Positions 19,870 through 32,511 of a stretch of 64,000 nucleotides of DNA are shown one piece after another. The position numbers and the translations under genes were made by a program. The stretch covers positions 1-64,000 of the IMG/VR virus record IMGVR_UViG_3300043788_000060; one strand, given 5' to 3'. Source of the DNA: a virus. The notes beneath the pieces are model-generated. The model made no database searches and was not told the DNA's origin. It saw nothing but the letters and a program-made list of their open reading frames with translations. Positions within the stretch are counted from its first letter, which is position 1. Each line of letters begins with the position of its first letter.

Positions 19870-21088
19870 AAATCCTCCATTTCCAACCCATTAGCCAGTC
19901 CATTATTCGGACTGTTGCCCGCTCCCTGCCACGTGGAGGCTGGATTATAGGGAGCACCCGCCGAAGCGGGGTTAGCCGTGAAATTGAATTCCAATGGCGC
20001 GGGGTGGCTGTGTTGGCCCGACAGCGATTTTGTGCCCCGGCAATCCGATTGTCAAAAGCAGCATCAGAAATGCGAACATATTCCTCCTATTCTGTCCAGC
20101 TTACGGACCACTCAAACAAGCCTTCTTTCATTATACCACGTTTGTCGTACTCGGCTTCGATAATTTTCGAGTGCAGCCGCGCCGTGCGGTTTTTGCGGGC
20201 AAGCAATCCATCGATAAAATCAAGTGCCGCAGCGCATGAGTCGTCGAATGACTTGGTGCGGGTCATATTTTCCCGCCCGAAGGCCCGTTGGTTCCGGCAA
20301 TGTATCCGAGCCAGCGTTCGCTATTGAATTGCGGATTCGCCTTCGCGCAAACTTGCCGGATCGTCCCCACGTCCTGCGCCCACTGCTTTGTGCGTACAGC
20401 ATCAAACATAGGGCGGGATTCGTTGAGCGCATCGGCCAGCGCGATAAAATCCTTTTTTGACATTGACATCGTTGTGTCTCCGTTCTCCTGAATTTAGGCA
20501 ATCAGTAACCGCTCAACCCCACCGCGTGAAGGTTTGCCTATTGGGGTCAACGGGAAGCCATTACCACTCGGTACCAGAGTAATGAACGTTTTCTGCGAGG
20601 CATACTCGCGCATCCCGCGTCCTTTGGTTCCCCGGAATCCGTCGATTCGGGTACTAATAGCGCCACCACGTAAAGGTGAGGACTCAGCGCCAACCGGATA
20701 ACGCGCCGGTATCGCGGTTTGTCCATTATTCGGACGGATAGATTCGGTTCCCGATGCGCTCGCCCCACATCGGCAGCGTGAAGGCCACGCCGTACTGCCC
20801 GGGCCTGTCCAGATTGTGAGTTGCCCGATAGACTAGCACGGAGCTACGGGTTTGATCGGCTATTTTCCGCGCCTCAGTCTGTGCCTGTCTCAACGTCATC
20901 TTCGGTTTCCTCCTCTTCTGGCTCGGCTTCGTGGCTAAACTGCATTCCGCAATTCCGGCATTGAACGTGAACGCGGTTTCCAAGCTGGCCTAACAGCATC
21001 AGCGGGCCGTCGCACAGATCGCAGGTTTCCATTTCCGCTCCTCTCAATTGTATTAACCCTACACCTGTTTTAAAAGGTTGTCAAGGGG

Positions 21089-21337: not shown

Positions 21338-22516
21338 GGTTTACCTCAATGCAGGGGTTGTGACCTGCTTCCCGCATTAACCCGGATTGCTCCGGGCCAC
21401 TCTGCGTTACAGGTTGTCGTGGACGTTGCTAATCAGCCTTGCAGCCAACCCCAATGCTTCCTCATTGGACAGAAAGAAAAACACCTTTGCCGCGCCCGGT
21501 GCCTGATCTAAACCGGGAGTAAACAGAATCTTGCCCTCATAGCGGCCTACGGTGCCTAGCGTGTCGATGCTGGCCGTCTGCCGTGTCTCTTCGCCCGTGC
21601 GCCCCACTATCACGATTTTCGCCATAAATCCTCCTAGCCTGTCTCTTCAGTGCCGGTAGGCTAATCCCGGCAGACCGTCCGAAAAATGGACGGTTTCGAC
21701 TTATGCGCTCCTGTGCGGGCGGCGCGAGTAGACGTTGGCGGGCTCCGACTCGGGTTGCAATACCGCTTTCGCTTTTCGGTAGGTAATCACAATATCCGGC
21801 CAATCCCGCGCGGTTTGTAGAACCCCCACAGCCTCGACATCGCTCACAAATTCTCGAAGTACCTCAATCGCGGATTTTTCCATCCTATCCCCCTATCTCT
21901 TGAAGTTGATTGCGGTTAAACCCAATACCAGCACGCCGAATACCGCGAGAATCAGGTACGGGGCAATGGTTGCGATGTGCTGGCCATATGCGCCAATCAT
22001 TTTGACTCCAGAACTTCGAGCAGCAAAACATCGTGCCCGGAGCCTGATGCCTTGTCGTAGAATTCCTGCGCTGATTCGCGGCTGAGAAAACCGTGGACTC
22101 CCGGTTCGTATTCATCATCCACGACCACGACAAACTTTACCTTTGCCTTTTCAACGATCACGTTTCTCCTTTCCGCGCTCTCGCCATCGGATTAAATCCC
22201 GACTGTGCGCCGTTACTGTATGCGGCCTAACGATGGCCGCGCCGTTCGGTCTAGTTCGCTGCCCAATATCCGGCAACCATCCACTCTGCCGCTCTCTCCA
22301 GATACACTTCCCGAATCGGATGGCCCGGATGAAAAGCAGACAACCCGAGATTCTGTGCAACCTGATTCCTAACTGCCTTGCGAGTCATAACCTGCGCCAT
22401 TTCATAGACTGTCATTGATCCCCTTTCCCGATTCTCGCCAGCATGTATCCCATGCCTGAATCGCTTTCCTGTATGCCAGCTAACCGGATGCTGGCCCGGA
22501 TTGTCCGAATAATGGA

Positions 22517-26794: not shown

Positions 26795-27337
26795 ATGAGT
26801 TTGATCAACAAAGCCGTGCTGGTCCTCAACGCAAGTTTTGAGGCCGTCTCAATAACCCGGGCCAAAAACGCCATCAAATTATTGGTCAAAGGCGCGGCGG
26901 TTACTGAAGAGGATTACGGGATTGACGTATACCCGGGTCTCCCCCTTCCCTCGGTTATCCGGCTACGGAACTACAAAAAGATTCCGATTCGGATTTCGTT
27001 GCTGACCAGACCGAATATTTATGCGCGAGACCACTATTTGTGCTTGTACTGCGGAGCCAAAGAAGGTTCCTCGAAGATCATAAACGGGAAACCGGTACGG
27101 ACGATTCTTACTCTGGATCACATCCTGCCTGAATCTCGTGGGGGGCCGTTTTCTTGGGAGAACCTCGCCAGTTGCTGCAAAACGTGCAACTTACGGAAAG
27201 GCGACCGCACTCCAGAAGAAGCTGGAATGCCGTTGCTTCATTCTCCGGGCAGACTGACCATTCACACATCTCGGGCATTGCTCAGGCTTGTGGGACTTGA
27301 AGAAGACACGCGCTGGCACAAGTATTTGTTCTGTTAG
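26795..27337 (+). CDS. HNH endonuclease (McrA-like)
   Basis: VLVLNASFE, RDHYLCLYCG, TLDHILPESRGG..SWENLASCCKTCNLRKGDRTP; promoter at 26778-26788. Confidence 0.9.
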   Translation: MSLINKAVLVLNASFEAVSITRAKNAIKLLVKGAAVTEEDYGIDVYPGLPLPSVIRLRNYKKIPIRISLLTRPNIYARDHYLCLYCGAKEGSSKIINGKPVRTILTLDHILPESRGGPFSWENLASCCKTCNLRKGDRTPEEAGMPLLHSPGRLTIHTSRALLRLVGLEEDTRWHKYLFC

Positions 27338-27399
27338 CGCACAAAACAAAAATCTGTGGTATAATGTAATTGTCTGCTGAAAAGAGACAAGGAGAAGTG

Positions 27400-28752
27400 A
27401 TGAGAACCAACACAAAGGCAACGGTGGTTTTGCCCCGTACCCACGAGGGGGCGGTTGCGGCAAGACTTAACAATTCGCAGAAGCTCCGTCGTCTGGTCAT
27501 GGCCTCGATGTTGTGGGAAGATCAGTTCTATATCGACGGGGTCTCGCACGCAGAGTATGTAAAGCAGGCTTTACTCGAAGCGTCTCCGGAAGAGGTTGCA
27601 CAAATTGCAATCGAAGCCAGAGAACAGATGAAGCTGCGACACATCCCCTTGTTCTTGGTTCGGGAACTGGCCCGCCACCCCGACAAGAAAGCACGGACTT
27701 TGGTTTCGGATACTCTTACCAGAGTGATCCAGAGACCGGATGAACTCACTGAGTTCCTAAGCATTTATTGGCTCGACGGGAAGCAACCACTTTCAGCGCA
27801 AGTCAAGAAGGGCTTGGCTGGAGCTTTCTCAAAGTTCAACGAGTACGAACTGGCAAAATGGCAGAAGGCGGACGCCGCAGTGAAGCTGCGCGACGTTCTG
27901 TTCCTGACCCACGCCCGTCCGGAAAATGGACAGGAAGAACTGTTCAAGAAGATCGTCGATCAGACTTTGGTAACTCCGGATACGTGGGAAGTCGCTCTGT
28001 CTGCCGGATCGGACAAAAAGGAAACTTGGGTCCGTTTGCTTTCAGAGAACAAGCTGGGGGCGCTCGCCCTCCTCCGTAACTTGCGGAACATGCAGCAGGT
28101 TGGGGTTTCTGATGACCTGATCCGTGATGGCCTCAAGAAAATGAAGGTCGAACGGGTACTTCCGTTCCGGTTCATTTCGGCAGCTAAGTATGCTCCTTCC
28201 CTCGAACCTCAGTTGGAAGAGGCGATGTTCAAGTGTCTGGCTGACGCACCAAAGCTAACCGGCAAAACTGTTCTGTGTGTGGATACCTCTGGTTCCATGC
28301 AGAGCACAGTATCCGGAAAGTCTGAAATCAGCAGACAGGAAGCGGCGACCGCTTTGGCGATCCTGCTTCGTGAAATCTGCGAAGATGTTCAGATCATAGC
28401 TTTTGGATCGACCGCCGGTTTCGTTCGTCCTCGCAGAGGATTTGCGCTGAAGGATGAGATCGGAAACGGACGGTTCGGCCACGGAACCGACACGCAGGCA
28501 GCAATCTTGCTTGCGGCAAGCAAGGGATATGACCGAATCATTGTGTTGACCGACGAACAATCAGCAACCAATGTCGGCAATCCTTTAGTTGGAACCAAAG
28601 GCTACATGCTCAACGTTGCTGCTTACCAAAACGGCGTAGGCGGAACCGGCTGGACAAGAGTTGACGGATGGTCAGAAGCTGTGGTAGACTACATCCGTGA
28701 AGTTGAAAGACAGGCGGGGGTAGAAGCTCCCGCAGAACTTGAATATGCTTGA
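27400..28752 (+). CDS. Ro60/TROVE-domain RNA-binding protein (Rsr-like) with a VWA domain
   Basis: THEGA, WEDQFY, QRPDELTEFL, KLRDVLFLTH, TWEVALS, ALLRNLRNM, VLPFRF, MIDAS DTSGSM, VLTDEQ; promoter at 27355-27365. Confidence 0.93.
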   Translation: MRTNTKATVVLPRTHEGAVAARLNNSQKLRRLVMASMLWEDQFYIDGVSHAEYVKQALLEASPEEVAQIAIEAREQMKLRHIPLFLVRELARHPDKKARTLVSDTLTRVIQRPDELTEFLSIYWLDGKQPLSAQVKKGLAGAFSKFNEYELAKWQKADAAVKLRDVLFLTHARPENGQEELFKKIVDQTLVTPDTWEVALSAGSDKKETWVRLLSENKLGALALLRNLRNMQQVGVSDDLIRDGLKKMKVERVLPFRFISAAKYAPSLEPQLEEAMFKCLADAPKLTGKTVLCVDTSGSMQSTVSGKSEISRQEAATALAILLREICEDVQIIAFGSTAGFVRPRRGFALKDEIGNGRFGHGTDTQAAILLAASKGYDRIIVLTDEQSATNVGNPLVGTKGYMLNVAAYQNGVGGTGWTRVDGWSEAVVDYIREVERQAGVEAPAELEYA

Positions 28753-28754
28753 GT

Positions 28755-28892
28755 TTGCTGGAATGGCGTAGAGTTCGGTTACTTTACTGCTAATGAAGAG
28801 ACCCGGGTTCGAATCCCGGCAGGTTCCTTCGGGAATTTGTAGTTCAGTGGTAGAACGCTAAAATCTCCGAGTTCGCTTGTTCCTTCCGGCAA
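28755..28892 (+). ncRNA. Y RNA, YrlA-like (Ro-binding stem plus permuted tRNA-like domain)
   Basis: End pairing GCTGGAA/TTCCGGC; T-arm CCGGG-TTCGAAT-CCCGG, capped acceptor stem CAGGTTCC-TTCG-GGAATTTG, then D-arm GTTC-AGTGGTA-GAAC. Directly follows the Ro60 stop. Confidence 0.85.
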
Positions 28893-28900
28893 TAAATTTT

Positions 28901-29003
28901 TCTCAGAGTGGCGTAGACGACGGTTACTTCTACTCAAAAATTCCCTAATAAGGAATTAGATCGCCTTAAATGGCATATCCGTAGTCGCTTGTTCCCTCTG
29001 GGG
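28901..29003 (+). ncRNA. Second Y RNA-like gene
   Basis: Shares TGGCGTAGA...GGTTACTT and TCGCTTGTTC with Y1; end pairing CTCAGAG/CTCTGGG. Confidence 0.75.
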
Positions 29004-29004
29004 A

Positions 29005-29078
29005 TTTTGGGGTAGTGAAGATCACAGTTACTTCTCCTTAACAGAAAACACAACTGTGCTCGCTTGTTCTCCCCAAAG
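29005..29078 (+). ncRNA. Third, minimal Y RNA-like gene
   Basis: TAGTGAAGA...GTTACTT and TCGCTTGTTC; end pairing TTTGGGG/CCCCAAA. Confidence 0.7.
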
Positions 29079-29084
29079 AGATTT

Positions 29085-29169
29085 GCGGTCTTGGTGGAAT
29101 AGCCAGACACGAACGGCTTAAACCCGTTTGGAGAAATCCGTACCGGTTGAAGTCCGGTAGACCGCACCA
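29085..29169 (+). tRNA. tRNA-Leu(TAA)
   Basis: Cloverleaf; AACGG-CTTAAAC-CCGTT; CCA end. Confidence 0.85.
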
Positions 29170-30243: not shown

Positions 30244-30264
30244 GTTTTGTGGTATAATGTCTTA

Positions 30265-30835: not shown

Positions 30836-31354
30836 TTGAGCAACCCAAAAGATGTAGGAAGAACGGAACGAATCGCAGAAACTGTCCGATTACTCTCGGT
30901 GGCAGATATTGTCCCTCCGTACACAACCTTCGATATTACGGAAGAAATGCTCGCTGAATACATCAGAGTCTATGGTAGTCTCGGACCCAAAGGAAACGGA
31001 AAGTTCCACTACGGGTTCGCTCGTAAGTTAGCTGGGCTAGAGCTTCTTCGGCTCAAGTTTCATAGGGGCGCTAAACCCAAGGATTGCAAAGAAGGCCAAG
31101 TCTACTTAATTGGTAATCCTGCATGGCCGGAGCACATCAAGATCGGAATGTCTGTAGATTCCGACGCTAGGTTGGATTCATACCAGACGTACGATCCATT
31201 TCGCGCCTATTACATCAAAAATTACGAATTTGTCCTCGACAGACGGGCTGCGGAAAAGAAGTTAATAGATGATTTCGGATTTCATCTACTGGAGGGAGAA
31301 TGGGTCAAGTATTCAGACTCTTCCAAGATAATCAAGGCAATTCGAACATTTTAA
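30836..31354 (+). CDS. GIY-YIG superfamily (T5orf172-like) nuclease-domain protein
   Basis: GQVYLIGNPAWPEHIKIGMS.D...RL..YQT..P...AEKKL...GEWV. Confidence 0.75.
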   Translation: MSNPKDVGRTERIAETVRLLSVADIVPPYTTFDITEEMLAEYIRVYGSLGPKGNGKFHYGFARKLAGLELLRLKFHRGAKPKDCKEGQVYLIGNPAWPEHIKIGMSVDSDARLDSYQTYDPFRAYYIKNYEFVLDRRAAEKKLIDDFGFHLLEGEWVKYSDSSKIIKAIRTF

Positions 31355-32439: not shown

Positions 32440-32511
32440 GCCAGAAAATTCCGGCTCGAATCCGGACCAACGGGTGCAAACGTTGAGTCGTCTAACGGGA
32501 GGACATCTGGC
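32440..32511 (+). ncRNA. Circularly permuted tRNA-like element
   Basis: Order is GCCAGA, T-arm, capped acceptor-like stem, D-arm, TCTGGC. Confidence 0.55.

What the first reader, a model, noticed from the sequence alone, without database searches (positions are those of the whole stretch)
27355..29078. Phage Ro60 followed by three Y RNAs with one shared protein-binding stem but three different payload domains
Seen: promoter, Ro60, then three tandem RNAs. Each has a different closing helix but the same internal motifs (TRGYGWAGA...GTTACTT and TCGCTTGTTC). Y1 carries a permuted tRNA domain (T-arm, capped acceptor, D-arm), Y2 carries short hairpins, and Y3 carries only an A-rich loop. Established: bacterial Ro60 binds adjacent Y RNAs, the YrlA class mimics tRNA, and Y RNA can tether Ro60 to effectors such as PNPase. 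Ro60/Y loci are known in some phages. Inference: a modular RNP toolkit co-transcribed with the tRNA array, for tRNA protection/quality control or as decoys for host anticodon nucleases. No RtcB ligase is present in this window.
Basis: partly seen in the sequence, partly recalled or inferred. Interest (0 to 1): 0.8.

Follow-up and report, generated by a model that had tools for sequence, protein, structure and literature searches.

The report
Phage Ro60 gene with three Y RNAs
A soil phage encodes the ring-shaped RNA-binding protein Ro60 followed by three small Y RNA genes that share one docking stem but carry different heads (one a tRNA look-alike); it is a well-supported but expected new example of a system already known in bacteria and other phages.

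Summary
A phage promoter motif at 27355-27365 precedes a Ro60 gene (27400-28752). The protein has TROVE and vWA domains, and its predicted fold matches only solved Ro60 structures. Three tandem structured RNAs follow: Y1 28757-28890, Y2 28902-29002 and Y3 29006-29077. They end 7 nt before the first tRNA of the array.

All three share one scaffold: a variable closing helix, a bulged U, a 2-bp clamp, a conserved internal loop (YGUA opposite GYUUGUU), an 8-bp helix, then UUAC. Covariation in relatives supports it (93-95% of cells paired, against 41-56% with partners slid). A model built only from short modules finds exactly these three sites in the 110-kb genome.

Y1 is a divergent YrlA-class tRNA mimic, with T arm, capped 7-bp acceptor, D arm and a covarying Levitt pair. 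It scores below Rfam's cut-off. Y2 and Y3 are shorter paralogs resembling YrlB.

The same scaffold flanks Ro60, always on its strand, in 23 of 26 phage loci and 40 of 40 bacterial loci, mostly Acidobacteriota. Phage Ro60/Y RNA loci have been published since 2014, and a phage complex with host PNPase was described in 2025.

This is a new member of a known kind. The decoy and tRNA-protection ideas are untested.

The parts
27355..27365 (+). Extended -10 promoter motif TGTGGTATAAT of the Ro60 / Y RNA / tRNA transcription unit
   Evidence: 12 copies of YGTGGTATAAT in the window against 0.43 expected. Their orientation follows gene orientation. The next + strand copy is at 30248. Function as a promoter is inferred.
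27400..28752 (+). Ro60 (Rsr) gene, 450 aa: TROVE HEAT-repeat ring plus vWA domain with a complete MIDAS motif (D295-x-S297-x-S299, T363, D385)
   Evidence: Pfam TROVE 2.3e-15 and vWA_Ro60 1.4e-06. phmmer to Thermus phage phiLo Ro60 9KOP/9L5Y, E 3.3e-25 over residues 13-436. AlphaFold model pLDDT 79; the top 12 listed Foldseek PDB matches are all Ro60 entries (9KOP TM 0.66, 2NVO 0.60, 1YVP 0.53). MIDAS residues are invariant or nearly so in 24 homologs.
28757..28890 (+). Y1: YrlA-class Y RNA. P1 28757-28763/28884-28890; bulged U 28764; GG:CC 28765-66/28882-83; loop CGUA / GCUUGUU; P2 28771-28778/28867-28874; UUAC 28779-28782; then the tRNA-like domain
   Evidence: Scaffold model R1, which was not trained on Y1, scores 49.0 bits, E 3.3e-11. 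Rfam YrlA 27.8 bits partial; genome-wide E 3.3e-05. In 10 relatives 32 pairs are 95% paired and 25 carry compensatory changes; covariation 0.797 against at most 0.196 when slid.
28782..28798 (+). Y1 V hairpin (CUUUA / UGAAG, 7-nt loop CUGCUAA)
   Evidence: Predicted by RNAfold and aligned as an anticodon arm by the tRNA model. The loop is conserved only in the nearest relatives. No covariation.
28803..28819 (+). Y1 T arm (5-bp stem, loop UUCGAAU)
   Evidence: 100% paired in 10 relatives; 4 of 5 pairs compensatory. Loop invariant.
28820..28839 (+). Y1 capped acceptor-like stem (7 bp plus a C:G pair, closed by UUCG)
   Evidence: 8 pairs, 92.5% paired, 7 with compensatory changes. Followed by U8-A9-like UA.
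28842..28856 (+). Y1 D arm (4-bp stem, loop AGUGGUA with G18 G19)
   Evidence: 100% paired; 3 of 4 pairs compensatory. Levitt pair G15:C48 in 9 relatives, switched to A15:U48 in L002.
28902..29002 (+). Y2: Y RNA with the same scaffold. The payload is an extended V arm (inner hairpin with 7-nt loop CUAAUAA) plus a second small hairpin
   Evidence: R1, not trained on Y2, scores 46.2 bits, E 2.1e-10. RNAalifold on 7 Y2-type relatives independently returns the scaffold; 14 of 17 pairs are compensatory. Both payload hairpins are kept with different sequences in L001-L003.
29006..29077 (+). Y3: minimal Y RNA. The scaffold has AG:CU in place of GG:CC. The 26-nt apical region holds a predicted 4-bp hairpin and an A-rich tract
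   Evidence: 12 short relatives: 17 scaffold pairs 93.6% paired against 41-52% when slid; covariation 0.861; 0 of 500 shuffles reach it. R1 scores 73.8 bits, but Y3 is in the training set.
29085..29169 (+). tRNA-Leu(UAA), first gene of the tRNA array that directly follows Y3 (context)
   Evidence: ARAGORN and Rfam tRNA. The same Ro60 / Y RNA / tRNA-Leu / tRNA-Cys order occurs in L001 and L003.

Best explanation
This is a phage copy of the bacterial rsr (Ro60) / Y RNA system.

One extended -10 promoter drives the Ro60 mRNA, three Y RNAs and the first tRNAs. The Y RNAs are probably cut out of that precursor along with the tRNAs (inferred).

Each Y RNA offers Ro60 the same docking site. It consists of a bulged helix and a conserved internal loop: 5' GGYGUAG, a one-base variant of the published GNCGAAN0-1G motif, opposite 3' CGYUUGUUCC.

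The three RNAs differ in the distal module. Y1 is a YrlA-type L-shaped tRNA mimic with a capped 7-bp acceptor stem. Y2 and Y3 are hairpin-only, YrlB-like forms. Ro60 can therefore form three alternative RNPs.

By analogy with Deinococcus, Salmonella and Thermus phage phiLo, these RNPs most likely tether Ro60 to a host partner, most plausibly the 3'-5' exonuclease PNPase, and gate its central cavity. That would direct decay or surveillance of structured or misfolded RNAs during infection.

Shown here: protein identity and fold, RNA structures, the shared scaffold, and the genomic linkage. Inferred: Ro60 binding, RNA processing, partners and targets.
For: Ro60 identity: Pfam TROVE and vWA_Ro60; phmmer to phiLo Ro60; the fold matches only Ro60 structures.

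Scaffold reality: covariation in three independent alignments.

Scaffold specificity: model R1 hits only these three sites in the 110-kb genome.

Linkage to Ro60: 53 of 53 hits (E below 0.01) in phage loci and 121 of 121 in bacterial loci lie on the Ro60 strand, within about 3 kb. Hits occur in 23 of 26 and 40 of 40 loci.

Homology to YrlA: Rfam YrlA aligns full length to the Y1 orthologs in L001 (44.3 bits) and CcrColossus (42.3 bits). Its consensus carries cggCgaAUG, CUA and AcUuGucGcc at the positions of our GGCGUAG, UUAC and CGCUUGUUCC.

tRNA tertiary set, with a covarying Levitt pair.

Precedent: YrlA/YrlB bound by Rsr and processed from one precursor; YrlA-like RNAs in 22 phages (PMC4201824). 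phiLo Ro60 binds two phage Yrl RNAs and forms ternary complexes with host PNPase (PMC12135203).

No + strand terminator-like site lies between the Ro60 stop and the promoter at 30248.
Against: There are no expression, processing or binding data, because the phage is an uncultured metagenome record.

Y1 is below the Rfam YrlA gathering score: 27.8 against 69 bits, with only model positions 28-81 aligned.

The 5' motif differs from GNCGAAN0-1G at one base in Y1 and Y2 and at three bases in Y3.

The partner is unknown. The phage encodes no PNPase, so a host enzyme must be assumed.

The analogy to phiLo rests on 25-26% protein identity.
Confidence: 0.72

Rival explanations
1. Anti-defence or tRNA-protection device. 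The Y RNAs, above all the tRNA-like Y1, would act as decoys or sensors for host tRNA-cleaving nucleases. Alternatively, the Ro60 RNP would shield or triage the phage's own tRNAs.
For: The locus sits at the head of a 30-plus tRNA array. Ro60/Y loci lie among same-strand tRNA genes in about half of the phage loci. Y1 keeps the tRNA elbow and a 7-bp acceptor. Some payload loops look like anticodon loops: CUGCUAA in Y1 and CUAAUAA in Y2. The bacterial rsr-yrlBA genes belong to the RtcB RNA-repair operon (PMC7790460, listed).
Against: The anticodon-like loops are not conserved. L001 and L014 have 3-4-nt loops at the V position, and L003's Y2 loop lacks the purine at position 37. None resembles a known target such as tRNA-Lys(UUU). 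The genome has no RtcB and no CCA-adding enzyme. The only ligase-family gene is 75 kb away. The same arrays sit upstream of chromosomal Ro60 in 40 of 40 bacterial loci, where an anti-defence role makes no sense.
Confidence: 0.13
2. Cis-acting 3' UTR elements. The three modules would stay attached to the Ro60 mRNA or the tRNA precursor. They would act as Ro60-binding sites for autoregulation, or as stabilisers against 3' exonucleases, rather than as free Y RNAs.
For: Y1 starts 5 nt after the stop codon, with no promoter or terminator of its own. The modules are separated by only 3-11 nt.
Against: In relatives and in all sampled bacteria the modules lie upstream of Ro60, or are separated from it by tRNAs or ORFs. 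The position relative to the mRNA is therefore not conserved, while the strand is. M. smegmatis YrlA and YrlB are processed from one precursor into free RNAs (PMC4201824). RNase P cleavage at tRNA-Leu would free a 3' end just after Y3.
Confidence: 0.1
3. Decaying tRNA-derived repeats without function, for example relics of recombination within the tRNA array. ARAGORN even calls a tRNA-Val at 28751-28827.
For: ARAGORN call. A partial tRNA model match of 25.7 bits. The payloads are built from tRNA parts.
Against: The tRNA match is below the cut-off and uses the scaffold's 5' strand as a false D arm. Compensatory changes maintain P1, P2, T, AS and D across Ro60 lineages down to about 50% identity. 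The link to Ro60 is strict in strand and position.
Confidence: 0.02

Closest known systems
Bacterial Rsr (Ro60) with YrlA and YrlB (Salmonella Typhimurium, Mycobacterium smegmatis; Chen et al. 2014, PMC4201824; YrlA structure 6CU1, bioRxiv 10.1101/312249)
   Same: Ro60 gene with two or more Y RNA genes on the same strand within 4 kb. One Y RNA is a permuted tRNA mimic (V, T, capped acceptor, D) with U8-A9, G18G19, a UUCGA T loop and a Levitt pair that covaries. There is a 5' G-N-C-G-A/U-A-G motif, a YUAY, and further hairpin-type Y RNAs. The 7-bp acceptor matches M. smegmatis YrlA.
   Different: The 5' motif is GGYGUAG (U for A). A strongly conserved 3' strand, CGYUUGUUCC, forms an internal loop rather than the continuous GGCGA/UCGCC helix of the Rfam consensus. 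There are three RNAs, placed downstream of Ro60 and fused to a tRNA array. There is no RtcB/RtcA operon. The score is below the Rfam RF02553 cut-off.
Thermus phage phiLo Ro60 with Yrl1 and Yrl2 (PMC12135203; PDB 9KOP, 9L5Y)
   Same: It is the nearest solved structure to this protein (E 3.3e-25; TM 0.66). It is a phage-encoded Ro60 with more than one adjacent Y-like RNA carrying the CGAA-type motif. Binding and a ternary complex with host PNPase were shown experimentally.
   Different: Only 25-26% identity. The phiLo RNAs lie upstream, number two, and are not described as tRNA mimics. No tRNA array context is reported.
[quoted passage not shown] 2014)
   Same: Phage TROVE protein with a YrlA nearby. 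CcrColossus Ro60 is 46.5% identical. Its locus holds a full-length Rfam YrlA match (42.3 bits) plus four scaffold-model hits upstream of the gene.
   Different: Only the tRNA-like member was reported there. The non-tRNA-like paralogs sharing the scaffold were not described in the text I could read.
Deinococcus radiodurans Rsr / Yrn1 / PNPase (RYPER)
   Same: The working model: Y RNA tethers Ro60 to an exonuclease and gates the cavity. There are several Y RNAs per locus.
   Different: Yrn1 has an unpermuted tRNA-like topology and a metazoan-like two-strand binding helix. No PNPase link is shown here.

Membership tests
Ro60 / TROVE (Rsr) | TROVE (HEAT-repeat ring) domain | tested here: met
   PF05731 E 2.3e-15, 57.2 bits against a cut-off of 23. 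Precomputed on all close homologs; many are named '60 kDa SS-A/Ro ribonucleoprotein' by JGI.
Ro60 / TROVE (Rsr) | C-terminal vWA domain with MIDAS motif DxSxS...T...D | tested here: met
   PF25045 and PF13519 over their cut-offs. D295, S297, S299 and D385 are invariant and T363 nearly so in 24 homologs.
Ro60 / TROVE (Rsr) | Overall fold of solved Ro60 proteins | tested here: met
   AlphaFold model pLDDT 79.3. The top 12 listed Foldseek matches are all Ro60 entries, E 7e-19 to 5e-11, TM 0.50-0.66; the next hit has TM 0.15.
Ro60 / TROVE (Rsr) | Binds Y RNA and misfolded RNA ends | not testable with these tools
   Needs gel shifts or RIP.
YrlA (Rfam RF02553; Chen et al. 2014) | Encoded within 4 kb of Ro60 on the same strand | tested here: met
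   Y1 starts 5 nt after the Ro60 stop, on the + strand.
YrlA (Rfam RF02553; Chen et al. 2014) | T arm, closed acceptor-like stem and D arm in permuted order, with tRNA tertiary nucleotides | tested here: met
   cmscan aligns model positions 28-81. T, AS and D helices are 92-100% paired with 14 of 17 pairs compensatory. UA, A14, G18G19 and UUCGA are present. Levitt G15:C48 changes to A15:U48 in L002.
YrlA (Rfam RF02553; Chen et al. 2014) | 5' GNCGAAN0-1G motif and conserved YUAY | tested here: inconclusive
   YUAY is met (UUAC). The 5' motif is GGCGUAG in Y1 and Y2 (one substitution) and AGUGAAG in Y3. The exact GGCGAAG occurs in relative L009.
YrlA (Rfam RF02553; Chen et al. 2014) | Score at or above the Rfam gathering threshold (69 bits) | tested here: not met
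   27.8 bits partial. Orthologs in L001, CcrColossus, L009 and L014 score 38-44 bits full length. This is a curated score, not a biological feature. The genome-wide E of 3.3e-05 would pass the E below 5e-05 rule used by Chen et al., although with a different model.
Y RNA in general (Ro60-binding module plus variable module) | Long 5'/3' stem with a conserved bulged or looped Ro60 site shared by the RNAs of one locus | tested here: met
   The same scaffold appears in Y1, Y2 and Y3. R1 scores are 49.0, 46.2 and 73.8 bits. Covariation is shown.
Y RNA in general (Ro60-binding module plus variable module) | Discrete stable RNA bound by Ro60 in vivo | not testable with these tools
   No transcriptome is available for this uncultured phage.

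The most novel reading that the evidence does not exclude
The scaffold may be a portable Ro60 docking cassette that repeatedly captures pieces of tRNA genes. Payloads seen here include a T arm alone, anticodon arm plus T arm, a permuted T/acceptor/D set, and a whole unpermuted tRNA body. One Ro60 would then be served by arrays of 3-5 or more different adaptor RNAs. Phages would plant the cassette inside their tRNA operons so that the tRNA-processing machinery matures the adaptors, and so that Ro60 is directed to tRNA-handling enzymes or to the phage's own unusual tRNAs. A scaffold-only model would open a census of non-tRNA-like Y RNAs, which Chen et al. said 'eluded bioinformatic discovery'.
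Probability: 0.2. Interest if true: 0.55.

Novelty: new member of a known kind. Interest (0 to 1): 0.3.

Why it matters
The locus adds a clean, fully delimited three-RNA Ro60 locus from an uncultured 110-kb soil phage. It also shows that the hairpin-type Y RNAs, not only the tRNA-like one, can be recognised by sequence and structure through a shared scaffold.

That scaffold model finds 1-5 modules beside nearly every Ro60 of this subfamily, in phages and in Acidobacteriota. Rfam's YrlA threshold calls none of the loci scanned with it here. Current annotation therefore probably misses most of these RNAs.

The function of bacterial and phage Ro60 RNPs is still open. Compact phage operons such as this one are convenient material for binding, processing and partner-identification experiments.

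The finding does not change the picture of how Ro60 works.

Tried and rejected
- Rfam at gathering thresholds finds no Y RNA in the window. Only the permissive scan shows the partial YrlA match.
- The generic sigma-70 scan missed the promoter, which has no -35 element. The repeated extended -10 motif had to be searched directly.
- ARAGORN's tRNA-Val(UAC) at 28751-28827 is rejected. It is the 5' half of Y1. The tRNA model reaches only 25.7 bits, and covariation supports the Y fold instead.
- I considered that the V hairpin or the Y2 hairpin mimics an anticodon stem-loop. I dropped the idea because the loop size and sequence are not kept in relatives.
- I considered that GGYGUAG pairs with CCUUGUU as a continuous helix. 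Variants in L009 (GGUGAUG / CGAUUAUUCC) give A-A and U-U oppositions, so I treat it as a conserved internal loop.
- MAFFT did not align the Y2 payload hairpins structurally. Their conservation therefore rests on single-sequence folds and inspection, not on formal pair counts.
- Genome-wide searches for RtcB, CCA-adding enzyme, RNase PH/PNPase and RNase P RNA were all negative.
- The Ralstonia phage RsoM2USA locus, L017 and L021 gave no scaffold-model hit. L017 does hold a module by pattern search.
- The region 32440-32511, noted earlier in this scan as a second permuted tRNA-like module, gives no YrlA or scaffold hit.
- Two reviews (PMC10870794, PMC6047535) are not held, so I could not check whether scaffold-sharing paralog arrays are discussed there.
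Full report
**What is there**

The window is the first 64 kb of a 110,256-base IMG/VR virus record rated complete by CheckV.

At 27355-27365 lies TGTGGTATAAT. This extended -10 motif (YGTGGTATAAT) occurs 12 times in the window against 0.43 expected, and its orientation follows gene orientation. A generic sigma-70 scan does not see it because there is no -35 element.

An AAGGAG ribosome-binding site and an ATG at 27400 open a 450-codon frame that ends at 28752.

The protein matches Pfam TROVE (2.3e-15), VWA_2 and vWA_Ro60. By sequence its nearest solved relative is Thermus phage phiLo Ro60, 9KOP/9L5Y, at E 3.3e-25 over residues 13-436.

An AlphaFold model built on 24 homologs has pLDDT 79.3. 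Its top 12 listed PDB matches are all Ro60 entries: phiLo, Xenopus, human and Deinococcus, with TM 0.50-0.66. The next hit has TM 0.15.

The MIDAS residues D295, S297, S299, T363 and D385 are conserved.

The family is very large. At least 8000 metagenomic proteins match at E of 1e-10 or better, and 93 GenBank phage records hold a homolog.

**The three RNAs**

Directly after the stop codon come three closed stem structures:
- Y1, 28757-28890
- Y2, 28902-29002
- Y3, 29006-29077

tRNA-Leu begins at 29085.

GTAG-N(3-14)-GTTACTT occurs three times in 64 kb, all here, against 0.12 expected. Exact CGCTTGTTC occurs only at these three sites.

Read together with relatives, the common scaffold has six parts in order:
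- a closing helix P1 of about 7 bp with free sequence
- a bulged U
- a 2-bp clamp, GG:CC in Y1 and Y2 and AG:CU in Y3, which is itself a compensatory change
- an asymmetric internal loop, YGUA opposite GYUUGUU
- an 8-bp helix P2 that always opens with G:C
- UUAC(UU)

**Is the scaffold more than chance?**

I fetched 24 viral loci that encode a relative of this Ro60, at 42-88% identity. I aligned their modules by class.

*Ten YrlA-type modules.* RNAalifold gives 32 pairs, 25 with compensatory changes. 95.0% of cells are paired, against 42-56% when the 3' partners are slid. The covariation score is 0.797 against at most 0.196, and 0 of 500 shuffles reach it.

*Twelve short Y3-type modules.* For the 17 scaffold pairs, 93.6% of cells are paired against 41-52% when slid. 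The covariation score is 0.861, and 14 pairs have changes on both sides.

*Seven Y2-type modules.* RNAalifold independently returns the same scaffold, with 14 of 17 pairs compensatory.

A covariance model (R1) built only from the short modules scores Y1 at 49.0 bits and Y2 at 46.2 bits, although neither was in its training set. It finds exactly three sites in the window and in the whole 110-kb genome.

**Payloads**

*Y1.* After UUAC, Y1 carries:
- a V hairpin
- a 4-nt variable loop ending in C48
- a T arm (loop UUCGAAU)
- a 7-bp acceptor-like stem, extended by a C:G pair and capped by UUCG
- U8-A9
- a D arm with G18 G19

It then returns to P2. The T, acceptor and D helices are 92-100% paired with 14 of 17 pairs compensatory.

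The Levitt pair is G15:C48 in nine relatives and A15:U48 in L002. This is the same tertiary covariation that Chen et al. reported for YrlA.

Rfam's YrlA model aligns positions 28-81 at 27.8 bits, against a gathering score of 69. The Y1 orthologs in L001, CcrColossus, L009 and L014 align full length at 38-44 bits.

The Rfam consensus shows cggCgaAUG, CUA and AcUuGucGcc where the phage RNAs have GGCGUAG, UUAC and CGCUUGUUCC. The scaffold is therefore a diverged form of the YrlA Ro60-binding module. The published 5' motif GNCGAAN0-1G is matched with one substitution, and exactly in L009.

*Y2.* It replaces the T-acceptor-D set with a single small hairpin. Its V arm is lengthened by an inner hairpin with a 7-nt loop. 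Both hairpins persist with different sequences in L001-L003.

*Y3.* It keeps only a short predicted hairpin and an A-rich tract. That stem is sequence-conserved without covariation, so it is unproven.

The three classes recur in the nearest relatives in the same or a shuffled order. L003 has Y1-Y2-Y3. L001 has an extra short module. L002 has a short module upstream of Ro60.

**Linkage to Ro60**

In 237 kb of window plus 25 phage loci, 53 R1 hits fall at E below 0.01. All 53 lie on the Ro60 strand, in 23 of 26 loci, with 1-4 per locus. They lie up- or downstream, mostly within a few hundred bases.

I then fetched 80 loci from bacterial and archaeal genomes. The nearest are 52-58% identical and are overwhelmingly Acidobacteriota (Terriglobia, Candidatus Angelobacter), many on megabase contigs.

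In 40 of these loci R1 finds 121 hits. Every locus has at least one. All hits are on the Ro60 strand and upstream of the gene, with up to five per locus.

The scaffold is therefore not a phage invention. It is the normal partner of this Ro60 subfamily, and the phage carries a compact copy. The Acidobacteriota bias also hints at the host (inference).

**Context**

No terminator-like site lies on the + strand between the Ro60 stop and the next promoter motif at 30248. Ro60, Y1-Y3 and the first ten or so tRNAs probably form one transcript. This is inferred.

tRNA genes flank Ro60 on the same strand in about half of the phage loci. Examples are Microcystis phage Mvi-JY20, with tRNA-Leu, Ro60, one module and three tRNAs, and CcrColossus.

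An HNH endonuclease gene lies immediately upstream.

The genome has no RtcB, CCA-adding enzyme, RNase PH/PNPase or RNase P RNA. It does have a 207-aa Rnl2-family ligase about 75 kb away.

**How it most likely works**

Established knowledge:
- Ro60 binds the conserved stem of Y RNAs.
- Y RNA tethers Rsr to PNPase in Deinococcus and Salmonella.
- M. smegmatis YrlA and YrlB are cut from one precursor, and its 7-bp-acceptor YrlA is an RNase P and CCA-addition substrate (PMC4201824).
- The YrlA domain is a true L-shaped tRNA mimic (bioRxiv 10.1101/312249).
- phiLo Ro60 binds two phage Yrl RNAs and assembles with host PNPase (PMC12135203).

By homology, the phage Ro60 should dock on the shared loop of Y1-Y3 and form three alternative RNPs. 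Their distal modules would recruit different partners: a tRNA-elbow-binding factor for Y1, and an exonuclease such as host PNPase for the hairpin types. These RNPs would steer decay or surveillance of structured RNA during infection.

Protein identity, RNA structures and linkage are shown here. Binding, processing, partners and targets are inferred.

**Rivals**

*Decoy or tRNA protection.* This draws only on context. The anticodon-like loops are not conserved, no repair enzymes are linked to the locus, and the same arrays serve chromosomal Ro60 in bacteria.

*Cis-acting 3' UTR elements.* This fits the tight spacing. It does not fit the variable position of the modules relative to Ro60 in relatives.

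*Decaying tRNA relics.* This is excluded by the covariation.

**Comparison and novelty**

Chen et al. (2014) reported 355 YrlA-like RNAs near Ro60 in 254 bacteria and 22 phages, including CcrColossus, with several per locus where found. Jumbo-phage surveys note TROVE proteins with a tRNA-like partner. The 2025 phiLo study gives structure and binding for a phage Ro60 with two Yrl RNAs.

What is added here:
- a new, precisely delimited locus in an uncultured soil phage
- a variant docking motif with a conserved 3' strand
- the demonstration that the non-tRNA-like paralogs share the scaffold, so a scaffold-only model can find them
- the placement at the head of a tRNA array

That makes it a new member of a known kind, of modest interest. 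Earlier notes of this scan on the same genome agree on the internal promoters at 30248 and 31888 and describe the phage as a 110-kb soil phage.

Noticed in passing
L014:2072-2188: A module with the same Y scaffold carries an unpermuted tRNA body: D arm, 5-bp anticodon-like arm and T arm. The tRNA model scores 41.3 bits over positions 6-65, so the Ro60 stem replaces the acceptor stem. It sits in the same array as a permuted YrlA-type module (2196-2335). Both topologies, Yrn1-like and YrlA-like, therefore coexist in one locus.
   Followed up: partly
L004:5-326: A bacterial class A RNase P RNA (148.8 bits, gathering score 100) is encoded on a viral contig. It lies just upstream of a run of 21 tRNA genes and the Ro60/Y RNA locus. 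The window's own genome has none.
   Followed up: no
L039-L116 (genome-contig loci): The closest cellular Ro60 homologs (52-58% identity) are almost all in Acidobacteriota (Terriglobia, Candidatus Angelobacter) chromosomes. Each has 1-5 scaffold modules upstream on the same strand. This hints at the phage's host range and at the origin of the cassette.
   Followed up: partly
window 28751-28827: ARAGORN calls a tRNA-Val(UAC) here. It is the 5' half of Y1 (scaffold 5' strand, V hairpin, T arm) and would be a false tRNA in automatic annotation. ARAGORN makes similar calls at the Y1 ortholog in L001, and the Rfam tRNA model matches the one in L003 at 40.7 bits.
   Followed up: yes
window 19884-19955, 21352-21406, 21633-21701 (all - strand): Three small self-cleaving ribozyme matches score above Rfam gathering: HDV-F-prausnitzii type (48.7 bits), twister-P5 (61.9 bits) and hammerhead II (42.5 bits). 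They cluster within 2 kb.
   Followed up: no
window 30836-31354 (+): A 172-aa ORF inside the tRNA array matches T5orf172/MUG113 (GIY-YIG-related) domains. It is probably a homing-endonuclease-like insertion. An HNH endonuclease ORF (26807-27337) lies directly upstream of the Ro60 promoter.
   Followed up: no
genome 103524-104027 (- strand; L036:1489-2109): A 207-aa protein consists of the PF09414 RNA_ligase (Rnl2-type) nucleotidyltransferase domain only (1.6e-18). It is the only RNA-repair-type gene found in the genome and lies about 75 kb from the Ro60 locus.
   Followed up: partly
L012:6856-7251: ARAGORN reports a tmRNA (tag peptide ANDTQFALAA) on a viral contig. It lies at the end of a tRNA array that also contains Ro60 and a Y module.
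   Followed up: no
L031 (Caulobacter phage CcrColossus, JX100810.1 104086-111414): Upstream of the annotated TROVE gene there are four scaffold-model hits (1717-1804, 1809-1908, 2323-2435, 2787-2917) plus a full-length Rfam YrlA match (1968-2081). No ncRNA is annotated in the GenBank record there. Module 2323-2435 carries an anticodon-like arm plus a T arm.
   Followed up: partly
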